Part shown: piece after piece, positions 1 through 21,190 of the stretch
Layout of the letters: each line of letters opens with the position of its first letter
How positions within the stretch are numbered: position 1 is the first letter of the stretch
Source: an uncultured Gammaproteobacteria bacterium
GTDB taxonomy: Bacteria > Patescibacteriota > Microgenomatia > UBA10105 > UBA927
Assembly (NCBI GenBank): GCA_964355865.1
Contig: CAYHFH010000001.1
Location: 6,184-37,633 of the forward strand
Length of the DNA stretch: 31,450 nucleotides
Direction: 5' to 3'
Translations under genes and position numbers: made by a program
The notes under the pieces: generated by a model
Seen by the model: the letters and a program-made list of their open reading frames with translations, nothing else
Database searches by the model: none
What the model was told of the DNA's origin: nothing

Positions 1-367
1 TCCGTGGTGGAAACGTATGCATTGCCCAAGCGTAGAAGAGTAAAAGAAACGGCTTAACCAGTTCGGACGGCTGAAGTTGAATGCCACCAATAGTCAACCA
101 TCGTGTCGCGCCCCGGATAGCCGGCCCAATATACGAAATAGCAAGGAGGGCAAGTGACGCTATATATCCGAGCGGCGCCGCCCATACCATAAGCGTGCTA
201 TCGATGACGGCCACAAACGATCCCACACAAAGGGCAACAACGAGGATGATGAGTTGCTGAAAAAATAATTCCTGATTTACAGAAAGGAGAATAGACAAGC
301 CAAATGATCCTACCGTCAGGAAGAGGACGAGATCGACCCAGTCAATAGCGTGAGCGAATTTCCCCAT
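1..367 (-). CDS. rodA: Rod shape-determining SEDS peptidoglycan glycosyltransferase RodA (5' part; runs off window start)
   Basis: Not in the ORF track; translated by hand from ATG at 367: MGKFAHAIDWVDLVLFLTVGSFGLSILLS...GATRWLTIGGIQLQPSELVKPFLLLF. It has the SEDS motif GAxRW...QPSExxK. A separate ftsW lies in the dcw block, so this copy is probably RodA. It overlaps the ileS 3' end by 52 nt. Confidence 0.85.
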   Translation of the reverse strand, partial: MGKFAHAIDWVDLVLFLTVGSFGLSILLSVNQELFFQQLIILVVALCVGSFVAVIDSTLMVWAAPLGYIASLALLAISYIGPAIRGATRWLTIGGIQLQPSELVKPFLLLFYAWAMHTFPPR

Positions 368-3210
368 ACAATTTCATCAGCAAGCGTTTCTTTTTTTACG
401 CGGTCTACGAATTCTTGAGATAACTCCTTATACTCTTCCGGCACTTGTACGCGGATATGTGCGTTTATTGTACATCCTTTTTCTTTACGGAGAATCTGGA
501 TAGCCCGGACGAGCTGGCGCATACGCCCTTCTGCCACAAGTTCCGGCGTGCTCGTGGTATCAAGCACAACCGTTTGCTCTCCGTCACCGGAAATAATCTT
601 CACTTCTTTTACATTCAATTCCTCTCTGATAAGCTCGACATATTCTTCTTCCAGTTTGTATCTGCTATTTGTTATTTGCACTTTCTGGACCGGTTGCCGG
701 ACCGGAACTGAAGCTGTTTTTCTCTGCGCGTGCCCCGAGGCGCACACATCGCGGACAAATTGCATCTTTTCTTCCAACTCATGTCCCTTGTCGCTCGTCT
801 CCTGTCCCGCGATCGGCCAATCTTTATGATGGATACTGTCGCCTGTATTCATGAGATTTTGATACATTCGTTCGCTTATAAAGGGCGTCATCGGCGCCAT
901 GACGGTCACGAGTGTCGTGAGTACCCATCCATATACCTCCATGGCCTTCATGTCTTCCCGCAGTCGAATCCGGCTACGACGAAGATACCAAGTGGAAATA
1001 TGATCCAAAAATGCCAATACATCACGGCACGCGGCCACCGTATCGTAGGTATCCATATGGTGTGTGACATCGCGGGTGAGGGACTGCGTCAAACCGACAA
1101 GCCAACGATCCAAGACGTGGACGGCCGCGGGCATCTGTGACGGAATCGATGTTTGCCCGCGGTATAGGAGGTAAAATGATGCCAGATTCCAGAGTCTCGA
1201 GATGACATTCTGATATACATCCTTAACTCCCAACTCAGAAAAATTGAGATTCTCTCCCCTCATGACGACGGACTCCATGAGATAAAACCGAAGCGCATCG
1301 ACCCCATATTTTTCAAATAAATGGGTCGGGTCGGGAAAGTTCTTTTTGGATTTACTCATCTTTGTGCCATCCTCGGCCAATATCACCCCATGCGTCAGCG
1401 CATTTTCAAATGTATGCGTGCCAAAAAGTCCAACGGACATAACGTGAAGCGTATAAAACCAGGCACGCGTTTGGGAAATATACTCTACGATAAACTGCGC
1501 AGGGTGAGTCTCTTCAAAGAGTTCTTTGTGATCAAACGGATAATGAAGCGATGCATACGGCATACTTCCCGACTCCACCCAGCAGTCAAATACTTCGGGA
1601 ATCCTCTTGCCCTTTACCGTTTTTCCCTCATCCACCCAAACTTCTATATCATCCAAAAATTCCCGGTGAATGTCCGTAAGTTTCGCAACTTTTTCTGGAT
1701 CCACCGCCCACTTCTTCAATTCTTCAATCGACCCAATGATCCGCTGTTTCGTTTCGACTGAAGACTGAGGACTGAGGACTGAGGACTCCGTTTGGCTTCG
1801 CCACACCGGCATCGGCGTCCCCCAGTACCGTGACCGGGATATATTCCAGTCCGGTGCAGTTTCCAGTCCCTTCCCAAACCGGCCAAGCTTAAGATAATCC
1901 GGATACCAGTTGATGTTTCCGTTTTGTTTGACCATGTCATCTTTCATTTTGGCAATATTGATAAACCACGCCGGCACCGCGCTATAGTAAAGCGGCGTCT
2001 CACAGCGGTAGCAAAATGGATACGAGTGGACAGATTTTTCCGCCCGAAACAAAATGTCCCGGTCAATGAGATCCTGGACGATCCATTCCTCGGCTTTCTT
2101 AAAAAATATCCCCTTGAGGGGCTCCACAAACTCGAGATACCTCCCCTGATCGTCAAGCATCGGGACGAGGGGAAGATCAAGCGTTTGGGCAAATTTATAA
2201 TCATCCTCGCCGTATATGGCCGCTGTATGCACCATTCCCGTCCCTTCCTCAAGGGAGACGAAATCACCCGCACCCACATAGAAGGCCTTTTTACCATCTA
2301 ATGGAAGAAACGGATAGAGCGGCTCATACTCCCGTCCCACAAGCTTTTCCCCGAGGACTTTTTCTAAAATTTTTACTTCCCAATTCTCTTCCTGTGTGAC
2401 ACTGGCAACCCGTTTTTCCGCTACCCAAATCAATTTATCGCCCACGGATACTTTCACATACGTGGCTTTGGGGTGCACAGCAAGAGCGACGTTACCGATG
2501 AGCGTCCAGGGGGTCGTCGTCCACGCGACAAAGTATTCATTCTCCGTGCCCTTCACGCGAAACATGACGAACACTGAATGATCTTCTACATCTTTGTAGC
2601 TATTGTCCATGGCGATCTCAAAGTTCGATAGGGGGGTTGCGCACCGGGGACAGTAGAGGATTATCTTGCGGCCTTCATAGAGGAGCCCTTTGTCACTCAA
2701 TTTTTTAAACGCCCACCAGATGGATTCCATGTAGGGCTTATCCATCGTTTTATAGGAATGAGCAAAGTCCACCCATCGCCCGATCCTTCTGATCACTTTT
2801 TCCCATTCTTTATCAAAACGAAGAATGGCGGATCTGCACGCCGCATTAAACTTTCCGATTCCCATTTCCTCGATTCCTTTTTTCCCGCCCTTGAGTTCGA
2901 GCTCCTTTTCGATCATGTTCTCAATCGGTATCCCATGGCAATCCCATCCCCACACGCGGTCTACGCGATACCCCTTCATCGTCCAGTAACGCGGGATTGC
3001 GTCTTTGATGACCGAGGTGAGGATATGGCCATAATGCGGCAGGCCTGTCGCAAACGGCGGCCCGTCGTAAAATACGTACCGTTTATTTTCAGGCCGCATC
3101 GAGACGGACTTTTCAAACGCTTTCGTCTCGTCCCAATACTCCAAAACCTCATGCTCAAGCTTGGCAAGGTCTACTTTTTCCTGCGGATTTTTTATCGTAA
3201 GGGATATCAT
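316..3210 (-). CDS. ileS: Isoleucine--tRNA ligase, type 2 (archaeal/eukaryote-like)
   Basis: YDGPPFATGLPHYGH (HIGH), GWDCHGIPIE, WTTTPWTL, GTGMVH, DWNISRSRYWGTP and KMSKS motifs. No C-terminal Zn finger of type 1. ATG at 3210 preferred over GTG at 3219 because TATAAT lies only 3 nt upstream of the GTG. Confidence 0.97.
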   Translation of the reverse strand: MISLTIKNPQEKVDLAKLEHEVLEYWDETKAFEKSVSMRPENKRYVFYDGPPFATGLPHYGHILTSVIKDAIPRYWTMKGYRVDRVWGWDCHGIPIENMIEKELELKGGKKGIEEMGIGKFNAACRSAILRFDKEWEKVIRRIGRWVDFAHSYKTMDKPYMESIWWAFKKLSDKGLLYEGRKIILYCPRCATPLSNFEIAMDNSYKDVEDHSVFVMFRVKGTENEYFVAWTTTPWTLIGNVALAVHPKATYVKVSVGDKLIWVAEKRVASVTQEENWEVKILEKVLGEKLVGREYEPLYPFLPLDGKKAFYVGAGDFVSLEEGTGMVHTAAIYGEDDYKFAQTLDLPLVPMLDDQGRYLEFVEPLKGIFFKKAEEWIVQDLIDRDILFRAEKSVHSYPFCYRCETPLYYSAVPAWFINIAKMKDDMVKQNGNINWYPDYLKLGRFGKGLETAPDWNISRSRYWGTPMPVWRSQTESSVLSPQSSVETKQRIIGSIEELKKWAVDPEKVAKLTDIHREFLDDIEVWVDEGKTVKGKRIPEVFDCWVESGSMPYASLHYPFDHKELFEETHPAQFIVEYISQTRAWFYTLHVMSVGLFGTHTFENALTHGVILAEDGTKMSKSKKNFPDPTHLFEKYGVDALRFYLMESVVMRGENLNFSELGVKDVYQNVISRLWNLASFYLLYRGQTSIPSQMPAAVHVLDRWLVGLTQSLTRDVTHHMDTYDTVAACRDVLAFLDHISTWYLRRSRIRLREDMKAMEVYGWVLTTLVTVMAPMTPFISERMYQNLMNTGDSIHHKDWPIAGQETSDKGHELEEKMQFVRDVCASGHAQRKTASVPVRQPVQKVQITNSRYKLEEEYVELIREELNVKEVKIISGDGEQTVVLDTTSTPELVAEGRMRQLVRAIQILRKEKGCTINAHIRVQVPEEYKELSQEFVDRVKKETLADEIVWGNSLTLLTGSISSSS
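658..678 (-). repeat. Degenerate heptamer tandem (CAAATAA CAAATAG CAGATAC) inside ileS
   Basis: Three 7-nt units seen directly; encodes QITNSRY. Confidence 0.4.
780..807 (+). repeat. Degenerate heptamer tandem (CATGTCC CTTGTCG CTCGTCT CCTGTCC) inside ileS
   Basis: Four 7-nt units sharing CnnGTCn; encodes GQETSDKGH on the minus strand. Confidence 0.4.
1756..1787 (+). repeat. Heptamer tandem repeat GACTGAG x~4.5 inside ileS
   Basis: GACTGAA GACTGAG GACTGAG GACTGAG GACT; encodes SVLSPQSSV in IleRS. Confidence 0.9.
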
Positions 3211-3215
3211 TACTG

Positions 3216-4730
3216 TCACTTAATTATATACTCAGGGTTCGTCTTATACAATCTCGCTCCCCCGACGGAATGTTCAAGCATAATTCTCCCGGACTTTTCC
3301 ATATTTCCAATCGCCTCGTTCCAATGATCATTGGATTCAAGAATTTGTGTGAGCCATTGATCGGGCCGAGTATCGACTACAAGAAATGTTGCACGATTAT
3401 CAAAATCCAGCCACCAGCAGCCTGCGTGTCCGCACGTAGTCCCGAGCGGAGTCGAGGGATCAAAATCGTGCACCCGGGGCCAAACGAGGTAAATCTGGTT
3501 GCGGTGTGAAAGATGAGGGATCAAATTCTGCTGTGTCGCAACTGCGGCACCTGGGGGAACCAATGCAAATAATCTACGATTATCCTCCATCCACGCCTCC
3601 TTCTTCCAGTACTCTGCCTTTACTAACTTATTCAGTGGCAAATGCCAAATGTATTGAAGGACAAGAGCAACTCCTAAAAGCACTACCGCCGCCCGCTGTG
3701 GCGCAATCCTCCATCGCTTGAGAAATACAAGCGCGTCGAGGGCTCCAAGAGTCAGAAACACGCCCAGCGTCGCGCGGTGGTGCATAAACGGACTCCACAT
3801 GCGGCTAAACTCCGGGCCAGTCACAAAATACTGTGCGAGGTCAAAAAAAATTGCGAGGATCGCCCCTGGGGCAAGAATGGGTAAAAATGCAAAACTTGCA
3901 AATGTATACCACCAAACCTGACGTTTCTCCTCTGAGTCGAAAAACTGCTGCAAGATAATCACGGGGTTAGGCGATATCTGCGGCCAATATTGGAAGCCGG
4001 TGGGAGAAAAACTCGCCACAACTTTTGACGCCAAAAGGCTAAAACCAACCCCGCCAATGATAAACGCTATCGCCATGAGGCGGAATTTCTTATGAAAAAA
4101 ATAGATAAATCCCAACGAGGCAAGCGCGATCCCCATATTCTCCTGCGTCAGGAGTAGCAGGATTATTGAGATGATCAACCATTTGATTTTCCCTGATTCC
4201 AAAAAATATGCTATCCACACCAGGAGCCCAACCCCAATCACCACGGGATGAAAATCAAAGTAAACAAGGTACTGGATGCCATAAAAGAGGCTATAAATAA
4301 CCGCGAGACACAGAGCGATTATGCTACTTTTCTTGTCATCCTCGGGCTTGACCAGAGGATCCAGCTTACTATCTCCAAATCTAATTCTTGCAATCTTATA
4401 AATAGCGAGCGCCGAAAAGCTTATCCAAAAGGCTTGGAAAATAAGAAGCATCCGGACATCATCCCAAAGCCAGAAAAGCGGTGCGAGGAGCGGAAGTGTG
4501 AGCGTCAGGTGATCACCCAAAATAAACCGGTCTTTGATGGTATTGTACGGCCACTGAAAATTCGCATACTGCCAGACCGCTTGGTCATATAACCCCAAAT
4601 CAAACCCCCCGGATTGAAAGTGATTATGCCGTACTATCGACAGCGTGCTATACGCTATAGATAAACCAATAACCCAGCAAAGAAGAATAGTTTTTGTATT
4701 TTGCTTAATGAAAAAAGAGATTGATTTCAC
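3216..4730 (-). CDS. DUF2079-like multi-pass membrane protein (putative GT-C fold glycosyltransferase)
   Basis: 504 aa with many TM segments. H.HFQSGGFDLGLYDQAVW, LGDHLT, FDFHP and QENMG motifs are typical of DUF2079 as recalled. Confidence 0.75.
   Translation of the reverse strand: MKSISFFIKQNTKTILLCWVIGLSIAYSTLSIVRHNHFQSGGFDLGLYDQAVWQYANFQWPYNTIKDRFILGDHLTLTLPLLAPLFWLWDDVRMLLIFQAFWISFSALAIYKIARIRFGDSKLDPLVKPEDDKKSSIIALCLAVIYSLFYGIQYLVYFDFHPVVIGVGLLVWIAYFLESGKIKWLIISIILLLLTQENMGIALASLGFIYFFHKKFRLMAIAFIIGGVGFSLLASKVVASFSPTGFQYWPQISPNPVIILQQFFDSEEKRQVWWYTFASFAFLPILAPGAILAIFFDLAQYFVTGPEFSRMWSPFMHHRATLGVFLTLGALDALVFLKRWRIAPQRAAVVLLGVALVLQYIWHLPLNKLVKAEYWKKEAWMEDNRRLFALVPPGAAVATQQNLIPHLSHRNQIYLVWPRVHDFDPSTPLGTTCGHAGCWWLDFDNRATFLVVDTRPDQWLTQILESNDHWNEAIGNMEKSGRIMLEHSVGGARLYKTNPEYIIK
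3223..3228 (-). promoter_or_regulatory. Candidate internal -10 box (TATAAT) for ileS
   Basis: Perfect TATAAT 12 nt upstream of the ATG at 3210, within the end of the upstream CDS. Confidence 0.4.
3436..3459 (+). repeat. GTAG-tagged REP-like imperfect palindrome inside the DUF2079 CDS
   Basis: GTAG TCCCGAGCGGAGTCGAGGGA; encodes PSTPLGT on the minus strand. Confidence 0.65.
4334..4362 (+). repeat. (C/T)GTC-tagged REP/RPE-like palindrome inside the DUF2079 CDS
   Basis: TGTC ATCCTC G GG CTTGA CC A GAGGAT CC: stem ATCCTC/GAGGAT plus GG/CC; encodes LDPLVKPEDD on the minus strand. Confidence 0.75.
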
Positions 4731-17701: not shown

Positions 17702-18949
17702 TCATACCATTGCAACTACCCGCCGTGCTGAATCTAAAGAAATGAGCGTGGGCAAATTTACGATACGCAGGGCGAAAGTTTCCGCATTCGGACACGATCC
17801 ACGCTCATACCCAAGGGTCTCCATATCCACCATGGCCGGATCGATAACATGGTTATACCAGTTTCCCAAAAGGATACCGTGCTGTTTTGCGCGCCGAATA
17901 ACCGCCGCTTGATCACGAACAACAATTGGAAACCGTAGATACACACCTCCCGGGGAATTGTTGGGTAAGGTAATATCTTTCCGGGATTGTAATGCCTCCC
18001 GATAATAGGAAACTGTTCGTCGTCGTATTGCGTTATACCGCTTGAGTTTGGAGAGTTGCCTCACCAAAAGTCTGGCAAGCGCGTTGGGGTACCGCCTTGG
18101 CATGCATGATGGCTTCGCGCCTACCAACTCCTTGCGGTCTACAGGCTTAGAGAGCAATCCCAAACGTTTGAAGCATTCAAGCATTACCTTTCCGATGATC
18201 ACAGTATAGAGAGGGAGAATCACCGCAAACGCAATCGGGTGAAATAATTGTTGTGCTATCCACGCACGCGATGGATATGGCAGCTTGCCTTGTATCTGTC
18301 GTAACTTTTTACTTTCAACTTTTAACTTTGGACTCATTATCGCCATTCCTCCCCACACGCTCGAAAGCACTTTGTCCCGGCCAAAACTAAAAAACGCCGC
18401 GTCCCCCAGAGACCCGACCTTTTGATTCTCATAGAAAGCACCCAAACTATGCGCGCAATCTTCGATCACAATGATGTTATGCGCACGGGCAATCCGCAAG
18501 AGCGCTCCCATTGCCGCCGGAATCCCGAAGGTATGTTGGATGATCATGGCCTTCGTATGGTTGGTGATTTTCTTCTGAAGATCGTTTGGATCTATGTTAA
18601 AACTTTGATCCACGTCCACATATACCGGCCGGGCGCCGGTCCACCGGACACTATTAGGGACCGCCACACAGGTAAACGCCTGGACAACGACGTCATCTCC
18701 ATGCCCAATACCGAATGCCTCGAGTATGGCATAGAGAGCTGATCGTCCACTGTCAAAAGAAACAGCAGTACGAACGCCGAAGTACTCTTGAAACCATTCC
18801 TCCACGCGGTCAATCGCGTTTCCCTTTTGCCAGCCGGCGGGACTGGCAAACGTTTGAATGGCTTCCCACACATCCCGAGCTTCCGTATTGGGAGAGAGGG
18901 ATGGAGATAGTATTTTTTGAAAATGCATGGGTTTTCGAATGTAATTCAT
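17702..18949 (-). CDS. DegT/DnrJ/EryC1/StrS family PLP-dependent aminotransferase
   Basis: SGRSAL, QAFTCVAV, VIEDCAHSLG, and SFGRDK with the PLP lysine. ATG overlaps the murF stop (ATGA). Confidence 0.9.
   Translation of the reverse strand: MNYIRKPMHFQKILSPSLSPNTEARDVWEAIQTFASPAGWQKGNAIDRVEEWFQEYFGVRTAVSFDSGRSALYAILEAFGIGHGDDVVVQAFTCVAVPNSVRWTGARPVYVDVDQSFNIDPNDLQKKITNHTKAMIIQHTFGIPAAMGALLRIARAHNIIVIEDCAHSLGAFYENQKVGSLGDAAFFSFGRDKVLSSVWGGMAIMSPKLKVESKKLRQIQGKLPYPSRAWIAQQLFHPIAFAVILPLYTVIIGKVMLECFKRLGLLSKPVDRKELVGAKPSCMPRRYPNALARLLVRQLSKLKRYNAIRRRTVSYYREALQSRKDITLPNNSPGGVYLRFPIVVRDQAAVIRRAKQHGILLGNWYNHVIDPAMVDMETLGYERGSCPNAETFALRIVNLPTLISLDSARRVVAMV
18303..18330 (+). repeat. Heptamer tandem AACTTTT-like x4 inside the DegT gene
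   Basis: AACTTTT TACTTTC AACTTTT AACTTTG; encodes PKLKVESKKL. Confidence 0.6.
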
Positions 18950-20457
18950 CTCTTCACTTCCCGCAATACCCGTTCTGACTCCTTGCCCTTAAACAGCACC
19001 GTATCGCCATCACGAAGTGTCTCCTGCAGAAATGCTGCTGCTTTGTCCGATGACAATACTTGTACCTGTACCGATGATCGCCCCGCGCGGACACCCTTCA
19101 TAAAATCTTCATAAAAATTCCTGTTTGTCAGAATGATTTCATCGCACATACGAGCCGCATACGCGCCAACATCAGTATGTCGTGTCCCCGCATACGCGCC
19201 TAATTCAATCATTGGTTGAAATACTAACATTTTCTTTCGCTTGCCCCAGGCCAAAATATCAAGAGCAGCGATCGCTGAATCCGGACTGTTGTTGAATGTA
19301 TCATTGATAGAGATAGATCCATTGATTCCCGGTATCGTACCGAGACTTTTTACGTTAGGTCGTATGGAACTGGCAGCCATAGCCGCTTCTTCCAGAGTCA
19401 TCCCAGCGGCGACAGCCCCGGCAATCGCGCAAAGAATGTTACCCACCTGATGGGTGCCGATAACCGGCGCTTTGACCCGCACCGCTGTATCCCCGGAGAC
19501 GCACGTAAATTCGATCCCTTCAAATGATGCATTTATGTCTGTACCGACAAATAGTACGTCTGCAATATCTGACTTTTGACTTTTCTGGCCATAGGCTGGT
19601 CCGCCTTTGGCGGAGACTTTTGACTTTTGACTGATGTACCCCCACACTTCTTTGCCTTCCCGTTTAGCCCAAGACGCCATCTCTCGTACACGAGCATCAT
19701 CAAGATTCATAACCGCAATATTTTTTCCTGCTATTCCTTCAATCAGTTCGTATTTGGCCTTCATTGTTGTCTCAATTGAGCCGAATAGATCCTGATGCTG
19801 CTCGTTGATGGCAGTAATGATTCCGATTTGCGGTCGGACCATCGTGGTCATTTCGGCTATCTCACCTTTCTTGTACGCACCCATTTCCACCACAAACACT
19901 TCGTGCTCCGGCATGAGACTTTTGAGAATCACTTCAGCAATACCAACGGGTGAATTACGGCTTGCTTCGGTTTTTAATACCGTAAATTTCGATGAAAGAA
20001 TGGTCGATACATATTCTTTCGTGGTTGTTTTTCCGAAACTCCCCGTGACACCGATGACCACCATCGGACGATGCCGGCGAAGTTTATCTACTGCCTTGGC
20101 AATTAGGTGTCTGTGATAGAGACGCACTGGAGCGTTGACTATACCCACAAAAATCCATGACATGGGAAAACTCATCAAATCCGCAACAGTCAAACGGAGG
20201 AGTATTGGCCATGAATTTATGAACATAATTAAACCAAAAAATATCAAATGGAAGAGAACTATAAGCGTCGACTTTGGAGTTATCGGCGGGCGCCTGTGTT
20301 CCGGCCAAAATATACGTTTGCCTTGCCGCGTACGAAGGTGAATGATCATCCTGTCCCAGCGGTATTCTTTTACCCACCAAAGTTGTGTATACGTGAGGAT
20401 ATTAGAAACGATGCGTGATCCCCACAACAGCACGATAATGATGAGAAGTGCTTCCAT
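18946..20457 (-). CDS. murF: MurF-like Mur ligase with an N-terminal membrane domain
   Basis: GVTGSFGKTTTKE, VVEMGA, IIT.INEQH, NDTFNNSP.S, MIELG and LFKG motifs. The first ~105 aa are hydrophobic helices in place of the canonical domain 1. Confidence 0.85.
   Translation of the reverse strand: MEALLIIIVLLWGSRIVSNILTYTQLWWVKEYRWDRMIIHLRTRQGKRIFWPEHRRPPITPKSTLIVLFHLIFFGLIMFINSWPILLRLTVADLMSFPMSWIFVGIVNAPVRLYHRHLIAKAVDKLRRHRPMVVIGVTGSFGKTTTKEYVSTILSSKFTVLKTEASRNSPVGIAEVILKSLMPEHEVFVVEMGAYKKGEIAEMTTMVRPQIGIITAINEQHQDLFGSIETTMKAKYELIEGIAGKNIAVMNLDDARVREMASWAKREGKEVWGYISQKSKVSAKGGPAYGQKSQKSDIADVLFVGTDINASFEGIEFTCVSGDTAVRVKAPVIGTHQVGNILCAIAGAVAAGMTLEEAAMAASSIRPNVKSLGTIPGINGSISINDTFNNSPDSAIAALDILAWGKRKKMLVFQPMIELGAYAGTRHTDVGAYAARMCDEIILTNRNFYEDFMKGVRAGRSSVQVQVLSSDKAAAFLQETLRDGDTVLFKGKESERVLREVKR
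19570..19632 (+). repeat. 63-bp composite in-frame element: GACTTTT heptamers flanking the palindrome TCCGCC-TTT-GGCGGA
   Basis: GACTTTT x2, CTGGCCATAGGCTGG, TCCGCCTTTGGCGGA, GACTTTT x2, GACT; encodes SQKSKVSAKGGPAYGQKSQKS. Confidence 0.85.
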
Positions 20458-20464
20458 AGACTGT

Positions 20465-21190
20465 CTATAATTTACCCAAAAAACGGGTTACATACGAGGC
20501 AAATTCATCAGGCTGTTTATAAGGGACACCGTGATTGGCTTCAGGAATGACAAAAAACTCCGAACCTATGATCAACCGGTGCATCCGTTCGGCAATAGAA
20601 AGAGGAACGATAATATCGTACTCACCCCACAAGAGTAACGTCGGCAAATCGATGGCTTCCATAGAGGTTACGAGGTCCTCCCGGACAATGCGTTTGAATG
20701 TTTCGCGCATGGCGCCTTCCGCACGGAAAAATTCTTTTGCCCCGACCACATAGTAGTACCACCGCCTTACCGTGTCCTGAACCAGGGAAAGCGGCGGAAT
20801 TGAAAACAAAAATCCTCCAATTTTGGCAAGTGTTATGAAAAATAGTAGTTTTTTCTTAGGAATAGGGGTAAATCCCGGAGTTCCGGATAAAATAAGTGCT
20901 CGAGTATGTTTAGGATACAATTCGTTATATTTGAGCGATACTCTTCCTCCAAATGAATGTCCAATCAAAATCGGTTGAACAATTTGATTCATTTTCAGAT
21001 ACTCATCGAGAAATCGTGCGTAATCAGAAAGCGTCAGTGGATGCTCCGGCATTTTGGAGGCACCAAAACCCGGCAAGTCCGGAGCAAATACCCGGTAGCC
21101 TTGCTTTTTCAGGCATTGTTGGAGCGGTAAAAATGTTTTACCGGATAATCCCCATCCATGGAGTATGACGATTGGCAAACTTTGCTTCAT
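20465..21190 (-). CDS. Alpha/beta fold hydrolase
   Basis: HGWG oxyanion motif, DLPGFG, nucleophile elbow GHSFG, acid in WGEYD and His in EANHG. Confidence 0.93.
   Translation of the reverse strand: MKQSLPIVILHGWGLSGKTFLPLQQCLKKQGYRVFAPDLPGFGASKMPEHPLTLSDYARFLDEYLKMNQIVQPILIGHSFGGRVSLKYNELYPKHTRALILSGTPGFTPIPKKKLLFFITLAKIGGFLFSIPPLSLVQDTVRRWYYYVVGAKEFFRAEGAMRETFKRIVREDLVTSMEAIDLPTLLLWGEYDIIVPLSIAERMHRLIIGSEFFVIPEANHGVPYKQPDEFASYVTRFLGKL

What the first reader, a model, noticed from the sequence alone, without database searches (positions are those of the whole stretch)
19570..19632. 63-bp composite hairpin-plus-heptamer cassette inserted in frame in murF
Seen: exactly 21 codons made of GACTTTT repeats on both sides of two mini-hairpins (GCC-ATA-GGC and TCCGCC-TTT-GGCGGA), giving SQKSKVSAKGGPAYGQKSQKS in the central ATP-binding domain. 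The palindrome sits inside the heptamer array, as if it targeted it or generated it. This is the clearest link between the two repeat classes.
Basis: partly seen in the sequence, partly recalled or inferred. Interest (0 to 1): 0.7.

Follow-up and report, generated by a model that had tools for sequence, protein, structure and literature searches.

The report
Tiny double-hairpin insert inside murF
The odd 63 bases inside this cell-wall gene are a short run of 7-base repeats interrupted by one copy of a 30-base double-hairpin DNA element that recurs in other essential genes of related bacteria and in many phyla, and is simply translated as a floppy protein loop.

Summary
Window 19570-19632 (minus-strand murF-like gene 18946-20457) is 33 nt of perfect AAAAGTC heptamer array split by a 30-nt core (19585-19614). 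The core is two tandem hairpins, TCCGCC-AAA-GGCGGA and a decayed CCAGCC-TAT-GGCTGG.

Deleting exactly the core restores an unbroken array. A sister species (G003) carries the same cassette. Two other same-genus genomes have a loop exactly 30 nt shorter.

The same core lies in frame in glmS, pheS, a DegT-like gene, glycosyltransferase genes and others of this Gottesmanbacteria genus (2-14 copies per genome). It also occurs in more than 100 MAG contigs of many phyla and in about 10 viral contigs. Stems covary (T-A 74, C-G 30, C-A 0).

The neighbouring DegT-like gene gives filled and empty sites. Stop-codon avoidance shows that genic copies are translated, and AlphaFold2 puts the murF insert in a disordered loop.

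About 12% of cross-phylum copies abut small GIY-YIG nuclease genes in broken tRNA copies. I infer spread by repair copying into dispersed short repeats; this is not shown.

The closest published analogues are the Nostoc SDRs nested in heptamer repeats and the Rickettsia RPEs. I found no paper with this core.

This scan has met the same element before on other DNA.

The parts
18946..20457 (-). Host gene: MurF-type Mur ligase (503 aa) with an N-terminal extension of about 130 aa predicted as helices
   Evidence: The ORF comes and its translation. Pfam finds Mur_ligase_M at 137-346 and Mur_ligase_C at 382-492. PDB MurF entries 4cvk and 1gg4 match at E about 5e-33 and 4e-32. Orthologues are found in 37 of 41 relatives.
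19570..19632 (-). The 63-nt (21-codon) cassette, made of a heptamer array plus the double-hairpin core, encoding SQKSKVSAKGGPAYGQKSQKS (residues 275-295)
   Evidence: It is shared with sister species G003 at 58 of 63 nt, while the whole CDS is 73.5% identical. Third codon positions are identical at 20 of 21 sites, against 253 of 480 elsewhere (p = 6e-5). The only AlphaFold2 segment with pLDDT below 50 is 279-295.
19615..19632 (-). Upstream half of the AAAAGTC heptamer array on the coding strand (AGTCAAA AGTCAAA AGTC)
   Evidence: AAAAGTC is the commonest tandem heptamer unit of this genome, with 20 exact arrays, and 14 of these loci are listed.
19585..19614 (-). The 30-nt double-hairpin (DH) core. 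Hairpin 1 is TCCGCC-AAA-GGCGGA (+ strand 19600-19614). Hairpin 2 is CCAGCC-TAT-GGCCAG (+ strand 19585-19599), with two stem pairs broken
   Evidence: Folds are. A second full copy lies in G000 on contig C34. The genus holds 2, 8, 7 and 14 copies per genome. More than 118 contigs of many phyla carry it. The outer pair of hairpin 2 covaries: T-A 74, C-G 30, T-G 2, C-A 0.
19570..19584 (-). Downstream half of the heptamer array on the coding strand (AAAAGTC AAAAGTC A)
   Evidence: It joins in phase with 19615-19632 once the 30-nt core is removed, which can be read directly from the sequence. The same in-phase nesting is seen in 27 of 107 cross-phylum copies, against 5.2 expected.
18302..18329 (-). 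Degenerate heptamer array without a core ('empty site') in the neighbouring DegT/DnrJ/EryC1-type aminotransferase gene (17702-18949)
   Evidence: Tandem Repeats Finder lists it, and Pfam PF01041 matches at 3.5e-64. At the orthologous site G002 has a perfect (AGTCAAA)x4.7 array. G001 and G003 have that array plus the 30-nt core, read in another frame as PPKADQPMA.

Best explanation
The cassette consists of two nested layers of selfish or neutral repeat DNA that the gene tolerates.

Layer 1 is a short tandem array of the genome's own heptamer (AAAAGTC on the coding strand). It occupies a variable surface loop of MurF.

Layer 2 is one copy of a 30-nt double-hairpin (DH) miniature element. It inserted at a unit boundary (GTC|AAAA) with no target duplication. 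Because it is 30 nt long, the reading frame is kept.

The insertion dates from the common ancestor of this genome and its sister species G003. It is translated as a disordered loop of about 20 residues.

Shown here:
- The DH core is a dispersed family in this Gottesmanbacteria genus and in many phyla.
- Its stems are kept by compensatory change.
- Genic copies are filtered by translation: stops are avoided and orientation is fixed.
- Filled and empty orthologous sites exist.

Inferred, at roughly 35-40% odds: the core spreads by break repair or gene conversion, using dispersed short repeats as homology arms. Those repeats would be heptamer arrays within a genome and the conserved D- and T-loop sequences of tRNA genes. 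Small free-standing GIY-YIG nuclease cassettes would be the likely driver and the vehicle between lineages.
For: Anatomy:
- Removing 19585-19614 leaves a perfect 33-nt array.

Orthologues:
- The cassette is present in G000 and G003 and missing from 17 other orthologues.
- The loop between VWGY and DI is 96 nt in G000 and G003 and 66 nt in G001, which has a decayed 7-periodic array there.

Other copies in the genus:
- Copies lie in glmS, pheS, DegT-like, GT4 and other ORFs, always in coding-strand orientation and in all three phases.

Filled and empty sites in the neighbouring gene:
- G002 and G000 have the array only. G001 and G003 have the array plus the core.

Cross-phylum family:
- More than 118 loci carry the core. 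A reversed-pattern control gave 1 match in the 41 relatives.
- The outer pair of hairpin 2 is Watson-Crick in 104 of 106 copies, against 62 expected.
- Stem variants are compensated: CGGCC/GGCCG and CAGCC/GGCTG.

Translation filter:
- Phase-0 genic copies never end in GGCTGA. The count is 0 of 11 against 74 of 95 (p = 5e-7), and 0 of 10 against 5 of 14 within the genus.

DNA-level conservation or homogenisation:
- Third codon positions are identical at 20 of 21 sites, against 253 of 480 elsewhere.

Structure:
- The insert is the only segment with pLDDT below 50, between strands 270-276 and 301-311.

Mechanism leads:
- 27 of 107 copies lie in phase inside arrays, against 5.2 expected.
- Copies sit in D-, T- or anticodon loops of broken tRNA duplicates next to intact tRNAs.
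- A small GIY-YIG ORF lies within 100 nt of the core in 12 of 103 loci, against 1.55 expected, and 0 of 1000 simulations reach 12.
- The core usually lies 10-26 nt upstream of the nuclease ATG in one orientation. In L065 one gene is bracketed by inverted cores. In relative G033 a core lies 8 nt from a GIY-YIG match.
- About 10 viral contigs carry the core.
Against: - No enzyme activity or movement was observed, so mobility is inferred from presence and absence at orthologous sites.
- Most relatives have many small GIY-YIG genes but no DH core. Examples are G004, G009, G023 and G029. G000 has one small GIY-YIG gene and two cores, neither beside it. The nuclease link therefore holds for a subset only and could be mere co-residence in tRNA hotspots.
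- The DegT pattern (core in G001 and G003, none in G000 and G002) needs either two gains or one precise loss.
- High nucleotide conservation of the cassette could also reflect a DNA- or RNA-level function rather than gene conversion.
- Labels of MAG contigs can be wrong, although several hits lie on contigs of 200-650 kb.
Confidence: 0.8

Rival explanations
1. The DH core is a minimal single-strand DNA transposon substrate. On this reading it is REP-, REPIN- or PATE-like, moved in trans by HUH Y1 (IS200/IS605 or RAYT-type) transposases that recognise the two hairpins and insert without target duplication.
For: - Insertion leaves no target-site duplication, and a T-Y-T precedes the core in at least 92 of 106 copies.
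- The two near-identical hairpins resemble paired left-end and right-end hairpins.
- PF01797 Y1_Tnp-like genes of about 220-250 aa are frequent here. G000 has 5, and 35 of 41 relatives have at least one.
Against: - tblastn with the five G000 Y1 proteins found no Y1-like gene in the core-bearing cross-phylum and viral loci. Sensitivity was limited.
- The G000 Y1 genes are followed by hairpin-forming sequences unlike the core, and one (on C30) has them on both sides.
- G018 (98% complete) has cores but no Y1 match, and many genomes with Y1 genes have no core.
- There is no GTAG or CGTC tag.
Confidence: 0.12
2. The cassette is a selected functional module. It could be a structured DNA or mRNA signal (a pause, stability or protein-binding site) or a useful MurF surface loop, kept by selection rather than being a passenger.
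For: - Synonymous sites are nearly invariant between G000 and G003 (20 of 21).
- Stems covary across phyla.
- The cassette has been retained since the split of the two species.
Against: - The same core is read in three frames in unrelated proteins and also lies in spacers and dead tRNA copies.
- In murF itself, hairpin 2 has lost two of six pairs.
- Same-genus MurF proteins do without it.
- The peptide is predicted to be disordered.
Confidence: 0.06
3. The hairpins arose locally, by slippage or template switching within the heptamer array, or they are an assembly artefact. On this reading no dispersed element is involved.
For: Heptamer arrays are prone to slippage. The 30-mer is itself a near-palindrome, and loop 1 position 5 covaries with loop 2 position 22 (mutual information 0.32). 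Fold-back synthesis could give that pattern.
Against: - Near-identical 30-mers occur in dozens of unrelated genes and genomes.
- An independently assembled sister genome has the cassette with 5 substitutions.
Confidence: 0.02

Closest known systems
Small dispersed repeats (SDR4-6) nested in tandem heptameric STRR arrays of Nostocaceae (Elhai et al. 2008, Genome Res 18:1484). Details are recalled from memory because the paper is not held. Its existence and the SDR5/HIP1 point are confirmed in PMC4390886 and PMC5861425.
   Same: Both are very small (tens of nt) hairpin-forming dispersed modules. Both sit inside tandem heptamer arrays and appear at some orthologous sites but not others. Neither has terminal inverted repeats, a target duplication or a known transposase.
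   Different: This core is 30 nt with two tandem 6-bp, 3-nt-loop hairpins. It is found in Patescibacteria and many other phyla, whereas PMC5861425 states that SDR-like repeats were not found outside Nostocaceae. I could not compare it with the SDR consensus sequences. The link to GIY-YIG cassettes and tRNA loops is not, to my knowledge, part of the SDR description.
Rickettsia palindromic elements (RPE; Ogata et al. 2000, own knowledge; mentioned in PMC1779305 and the MITE review PMC10969869, listed)
   Same: Both are palindromic selfish repeats inserted in frame into essential protein-coding genes and translated as tolerated surface segments.
   Different: RPEs are about 100-150 bp, restricted to Rickettsia, and not nested in heptamer arrays. 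The DH core is 30 nt and occurs across phyla.
Mitochondrial double-hairpin elements of Allomyces and chytrids, and yeast mitochondrial GC clusters
   Same: Both are G+C-rich elements made of two adjacent hairpins. Both are scattered in spacers, structural RNA genes and, in frame, in protein genes, and both are often near mobile endonuclease genes.
   Different: Those are organellar and differ in sequence and length range.
REP/REPIN elements with RAYT transposases (PMC3116915; GTAG/CGTC-tagged REPs, PMC3733652, both listed)
   Same: Both are short extragenic-type palindromes in many copies, with structure kept by compensatory change.
   Different: The DH core has no GTAG or CGTC tag and no inverted REP doublet, and no flanked RAYT gene was found.
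Free-standing GIY-YIG homing endonucleases in tRNA gene clusters
   Same: Both involve small GIY-YIG genes lodged in or beside tRNA genes that leave broken tRNA copies. Here 12 of 103 DH loci have such a gene within 100 nt.
   Different: The DH core has no ORF. Most copies, including the murF one, have no nuclease nearby, and a causal link is not shown.

Membership tests
MurF / Mur ligase (host gene) | Mur ligase central (ATP-binding) and C-terminal domains, and similarity to solved MurF structures | tested here: met
   PF08245 matches at 1.1e-35 and PF02875 at 5.7e-11. PDB MurF 4cvk matches at 5.2e-33 and 1gg4 at 4.2e-32. The usual N-terminal domain is replaced by an extension of about 130 aa predicted as helices.
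Cross-phylum 30-nt double-hairpin (DH) element (unpublished family, defined here and in earlier scan notes) | T-CCGCC-NNA-GGCGG-A-YCAGCC-TNN-GGCTG-R, with both 6-bp stems pairable | tested here: met
   The murF copy matches the 26-nt search pattern exactly (G000:C1:25771-25796). Hairpin 1 is intact. Hairpin 2 ends in GGCCAG instead of GGCTGG, so two pairs are lost.
Cross-phylum 30-nt double-hairpin (DH) element | A clean 30-nt insertion without target duplication, often in phase inside a heptamer array | tested here: met
   Removing the core restores the array. The length difference from G001 is 30 nt. The DegT-like gene gives filled and empty sites. 27 of 107 copies are in phase, against 5.2 expected.
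Nostocaceae SDR (Elhai 2008) | A small hairpin-forming dispersed repeat nested in tandem heptamers | tested here: met
   The architecture is met. At 30 nt the core lies just outside the 21-27 nt range I recall for SDRs.
Nostocaceae SDR (Elhai 2008) | Sequence identity to one of the SDR1-8 consensus sequences, and presence in Nostocaceae | not testable with these tools
   The paper is not held. No plasmid record, Nostoc plasmids included, matched the core.
Rickettsia palindromic elements | A palindromic element of about 100-150 bp from the RPE families, in Rickettsia | tested here: not met
   The length is 30 nt and the host is Patescibacteria. Only the way it works (in frame and translated) is shared.
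REP/RAYT | A 5' GTAG or CGTC tag next to the hairpin, and REPs flanking a RAYT gene | tested here: not met
   The conserved 5' flank is T-Y-T. tblastn found no Y1 gene in the core-bearing loci, and the G000 Y1 genes have other hairpins beside them.
MITE | Terminal inverted repeats plus a target-site duplication | tested here: not met
   There is no duplication beyond the pre-existing array. The tRNA-loop insertions are clean 30-nt additions.
Any Rfam RNA family | A covariance-model match | tested here: not met
   Only tRNAs reached gathering score in 8 core-bearing loci. Nothing relevant appeared at E up to 10 in window 19300-19900.

The most novel reading that the evidence does not exclude
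The 30-nt double hairpin is the non-autonomous partner, or the boundary module, of a family of tiny GIY-YIG homing-nuclease cassettes. It spreads within genomes by break-induced copying into any dispersed short repeat that can serve as homology arms: genome-specific heptamer arrays and the conserved D- and T-loops of tRNA genes. It spreads between phyla on phages. If so, it would be the smallest known homing-type mobile element, and it would explain why heptamer arrays in ultra-small bacteria stay homogeneous.
Probability: 0.3. Interest if true: 0.8.

Novelty: new variant of a known kind. Interest (0 to 1): 0.6.

Why it matters
The locus shows that an essential cell-wall enzyme in an ultra-small bacterium carries, and translates, two nested layers of repeat DNA.

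It also offers unusually clean natural filled and empty sites for a 30-nt element, here and in the neighbouring gene. That element is conserved almost base for base across bacterial phyla.

Elements this small, with no ORF, no terminal repeats and no target duplication, fall outside the standard transposon models. Only Nostoc SDRs, Rickettsia RPEs and mitochondrial double-hairpin elements come close.

The statistical link to small GIY-YIG nuclease genes and to tRNA loops gives a testable route to the mechanism.

In practice, such inserts account for protein length differences and for contig breaks in CPR assemblies. They should not be read as functional domains.

Tried and rejected
- Rfam: gathering thresholds on 8 loci and E up to 10 on the window gave only tRNAs.
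- Literature: a search for four 12-mers of the core found only unrelated primer sequences. Elhai 2008 could not be opened.
- Plasmid collection: blastn gave only chance partial hits at E = 6.
- Closing stem: I tested whether the flanking T-run and A-run close a three-way junction. Positions -2/+29 and -3/+30 show no covariation.
- Y1 (RAYT/IS200) association: not supported by position.
- RNA-level excision (intron-like): rejected, because phase-0 genic copies avoid the TGA that most other copies carry.
- Loose census: a regex for any GC-rich segment between heptamer-like words in G000 was mostly noise. Only a few nested modules in it looked real (C2, C11, C34, C123).
- Copy-number comparison: by eye, GIY-YIG counts and core counts across the 41 relatives show no tight correlation.
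- One Pfam call failed on a wrong frame and was repeated without that entry.
Full report
**1. What is there**

The finding lies in a minus-strand ORF, 18946-20457 (503 aa). Pfam finds a Mur ligase central domain (137-346) and C-terminal domain. The best solved relatives are MurF proteins 4cvk and 1gg4, at E about 5e-33 and 4e-32.

The coding strand reads, in order:
- AGTCAAA AGTCAAA AGTC
- TCCGCC-AAA-GGCGGA
- CCAGCC-TAT-GGCCAG
- AAAAGTC AAAAGTC A

This gives SQKSKVSAKGGPAYGQKSQKS.

The heptamer doublets and the CCGCC-N3-GGCGG palindrome both exceed shuffled expectation. Genome-wide, period-7 tandem arrays stand out: 25 arrays have three or more exact copies, against none for periods 5 and 6. 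AAAAGTC is the commonest unit, with 20 exact arrays.

**2. Anatomy**

The 63 nt are 33 nt of array plus a 30-nt core (window 19585-19614). Deleting exactly the core joins ...AAAAGTC to AAAAGTC... in phase and leaves a perfect array of 4.7 units. This can be read directly from the sequence.

Hairpin 1 of the core is intact. Hairpin 2 is the decayed form of CCAGCC-NNN-GGCTGG and has lost two of its six pairs.

**3. Orthologues**

Among 19 MurF orthologues from relatives, only the sister species G003 has the cassette. G003 is in the same genus, at 74% amino-acid and 73.5% nucleotide identity, and its cassette reads SQKSKVSAEGGSASGRKSQKS.

The five nucleotide differences all fall in hairpin loops, in the linker, or in the already broken 3' arm of hairpin 2. 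The heptamers and hairpin 1 are identical.

The cassette is 58/63 identical, tying for the best of 481 windows. Its third codon positions are identical at 20 of 21 sites, against 253 of 480 in the rest of the gene (p = 6e-5). So it evolves, or is homogenised, as DNA rather than as protein.

Between the conserved VWGY and DI motifs, G000 and G003 have 96 nt and G001 has 66 nt. That is a 30-nt difference. G001 shows a decayed 7-periodic array at the site. The array therefore predates the core.

**4. It is a dispersed element**

A protein search of relatives gave short hits to residues 270-305 in other proteins. At the DNA level these are the same core inside AAAGTC-type arrays. They lie in frame in glmS, pheS, a DegT-like gene and unnamed ORFs of G002 and G003.

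A pattern search with up to 2 mismatches counts 2, 8, 7 and 14 copies in the four genomes of the genus. It finds at least one copy in 19 of 41 relatives. The reversed-pattern control gave one match in all 41.

G000's second copy sits in the interdomain linker of a GT4 glycosyltransferase.

In the genus nearly all copies lie in long ORFs. They are always oriented with the core's top strand as the coding strand, and they are read in all three phases: SAKGGPAYG, PPKADQPMA and LRQRRTSLWL. The orientation bias follows from the array itself, because the reverse unit GACTTTT puts TGA in frame within any three units.

**5. Filled and empty sites next door**

The neighbouring gene (17702-18949) is DegT/DnrJ/EryC1-type. 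At one position its four same-genus alleles differ as follows:
- G002 has a perfect (AGTCAAA)x4.7 array.
- G000 has a degenerate array of the same length (window 18302-18329).
- G001 and G003 have the array plus the 30-nt core at GTC|AAAA.
- G003 has in addition a 21-nt GC hairpin that also occurs in an array on G000 contig C2.

Another genus (G020) has a different heptamer, AATGNCA, repeated four times at the same site.

**6. Cross-phylum family**

The hosts are labelled Patescibacteria (many), Omnitrophota, Ignavibacteria, Gamma- and Deltaproteobacteria, Planctomycetota, Verrucomicrobiota, Elusimicrobia, Leptospira and others. Some hits lie on contigs of 200-650 kb. A few GC-rich hits (Streptomyces, Leifsonia) look like chance.

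G003 is a Candidatus Gottesmanbacteria MAG. The hit L083 shares its flanking sequence with G003 contig C17, and the two contigs have the same length, 65,712 bases.

In 106 non-redundant copies:
- The unconstrained outer pair of hairpin 2 is T-A 74, C-G 30, T-G 2, C-A 0.
- The base before the core is T in 105.
- The loops read NNA and TNN and tend to be reverse complements of each other, so the 30-mer is itself a near-palindrome.

Variants in relatives are compensated: CGGCC/GGCCG and CAGCC/GGCTG.

Flanking heptamers differ from genome to genome. Even so, 27 of 107 copies lie in phase inside an array, against 5.2 expected. About ten viral contigs carry the core.

No Rfam family matches. No paper in the library holds the core 12-mers.

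**7. Translated, not excised**

About 70% of copies end in GGCTGA. In the SAKGG phase that ending would be a stop codon. Phase-0 genic copies never have it: 0 of 11 against 74 of 95 across phyla (p = 5e-7), and 0 of 10 against 5 of 14 within the genus.

AlphaFold2 with 19 orthologues gave mean pLDDT 86.8. The only segment below 50 is 279-295, between strands 270-276 and 301-311. The insert is a disordered loop in the central domain, far in sequence from the P-loop (residues 136-144).

**8. Mechanism**

*Shown.* Insertion is clean, 30 nt and without target duplication. This holds in arrays and in the D-, T- or anticodon loops of broken tRNA duplicates that lie next to intact tRNAs.

*Y1 transposases, tested.* Y1 (IS200/RAYT-like) genes are common: G000 has 5, and 35 of 41 relatives have at least one. 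tblastn found none in the core-bearing loci. The G000 Y1 genes are followed by hairpin-forming sequences of their own.

*GIY-YIG nucleases, tested.* An earlier scan note suggested a link to small GIY-YIG nucleases. I tested it with an HMM built from 29 genus sequences.
- A GIY-YIG ORF of 85-130 aa lies within 100 nt of the core in 12 of 103 loci, against 1.55 expected. None of 1000 simulations reached 12.
- The core typically lies 10-26 nt upstream of the ATG, in reverse orientation, at the junction with a broken tRNA copy.
- In L065 one gene is bracketed by inverted cores.
- In relative G033 a core lies 8 nt from a GIY-YIG match.

*Inferred.* Heptamer arrays and conserved tRNA loops share one property. 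Both are short sequences repeated at many places, so both can act as homology arms. Break repair that copies from a core-bearing repeat would explain four things: nesting in arrays, the lack of duplications, the in-phase junctions, and the homogenised flanks.

*Against a strict link.* Most GIY-YIG-rich relatives have no core, and the murF copy has no nuclease nearby.

**9. Comparison and novelty**

The way it works matches two published systems. Nostoc SDRs are nested in heptamer repeats, and were reported as not found outside Nostocaceae (PMC5861425). Rickettsia RPEs are palindromic elements translated in frame.

The architecture also recalls mitochondrial double-hairpin elements.

Membership in REP/RAYT, MITE and RPE fails on defining features. 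Identity with an SDR family could not be tested.

This scan has met the same 30-nt element before, in other genomes: in secA, nusA, uvrD, a Mur ligase gene and tRNA loops. Those are unchecked AI notes. I reached the cross-phylum and tRNA observations independently before reading them. The GIY-YIG idea came from them, and I tested it here.

**10. Verdict**

The feature is real and well explained as an inherited copy of a tiny dispersed double-hairpin element inside a heptamer array. I rate it a new variant of a known kind. The mechanism of spread is open but now testable.

Noticed in passing
window 1756-1787: A GACTGAG x4.6 heptamer array lies inside the 967-aa ORF 316-3219. This is a different heptamer unit from AAAAGTC in the same genome.
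   Followed up: no
G000 contigs C11 (about 2986, minus strand) and C123 (about 1539, plus strand): A second 30-nt double-hairpin family, CCCGC-GAA-GCGGG-A-TCCCGC-TCC-GCGGGA, has the same architecture but different stems. It is also nested in AAAAGTC/AAAAGTT words.
   Followed up: partly
G000 contig C2, about 5690; L168:1500-1600 (G003 DegT-like gene): A 21-nt GC hairpin, CCCGCCCGCCGGCGAGGCAGG, is nested in AAAAGTC arrays in two genomes. In G003 it sits 12 nt after the DH core in the same gene.
   Followed up: partly
L006 (G020), DegT-like orthologue: Another genus carries (AATGNCA)x4 at the same protein position where this genus has AAAAGTC arrays. Either arrays recur at one permissive site, or the units are replaced genome-wide.
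   Followed up: no
window 20070-20457 (MurF residues 1-130): The usual MurF N-terminal domain is replaced by a helical, probably membrane-embedded extension. It has invariant residues across 19 orthologues (W27, K30, E31, Y32, R33, D35, R36, M37, H40). An alpha/beta hydrolase gene lies 7 nt upstream (20465-21190).
   Followed up: partly
G000 contig C30, 3635-4333: One Y1_Tnp-like gene of about 230 aa is flanked on both sides by the hairpin TTAACCCGACGGGTT in inverted orientation, a REP/RAYT-like arrangement. G000 has five such Y1-like genes in 1.06 Mb.
   Followed up: partly
L122:990-1720: Two tandem copies of a small GIY-YIG gene each have a DH core 26 nt upstream. They lie in front of an intact tRNA-Ser and among broken tRNA-Ser pieces.
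   Followed up: partly
L174, L176-L185 (IMG/VR viral contigs): About ten viral contigs carry the DH core, some flanked by GAAAGTN heptamers. I did not check whether these are true phages or host fragments.
   Followed up: no
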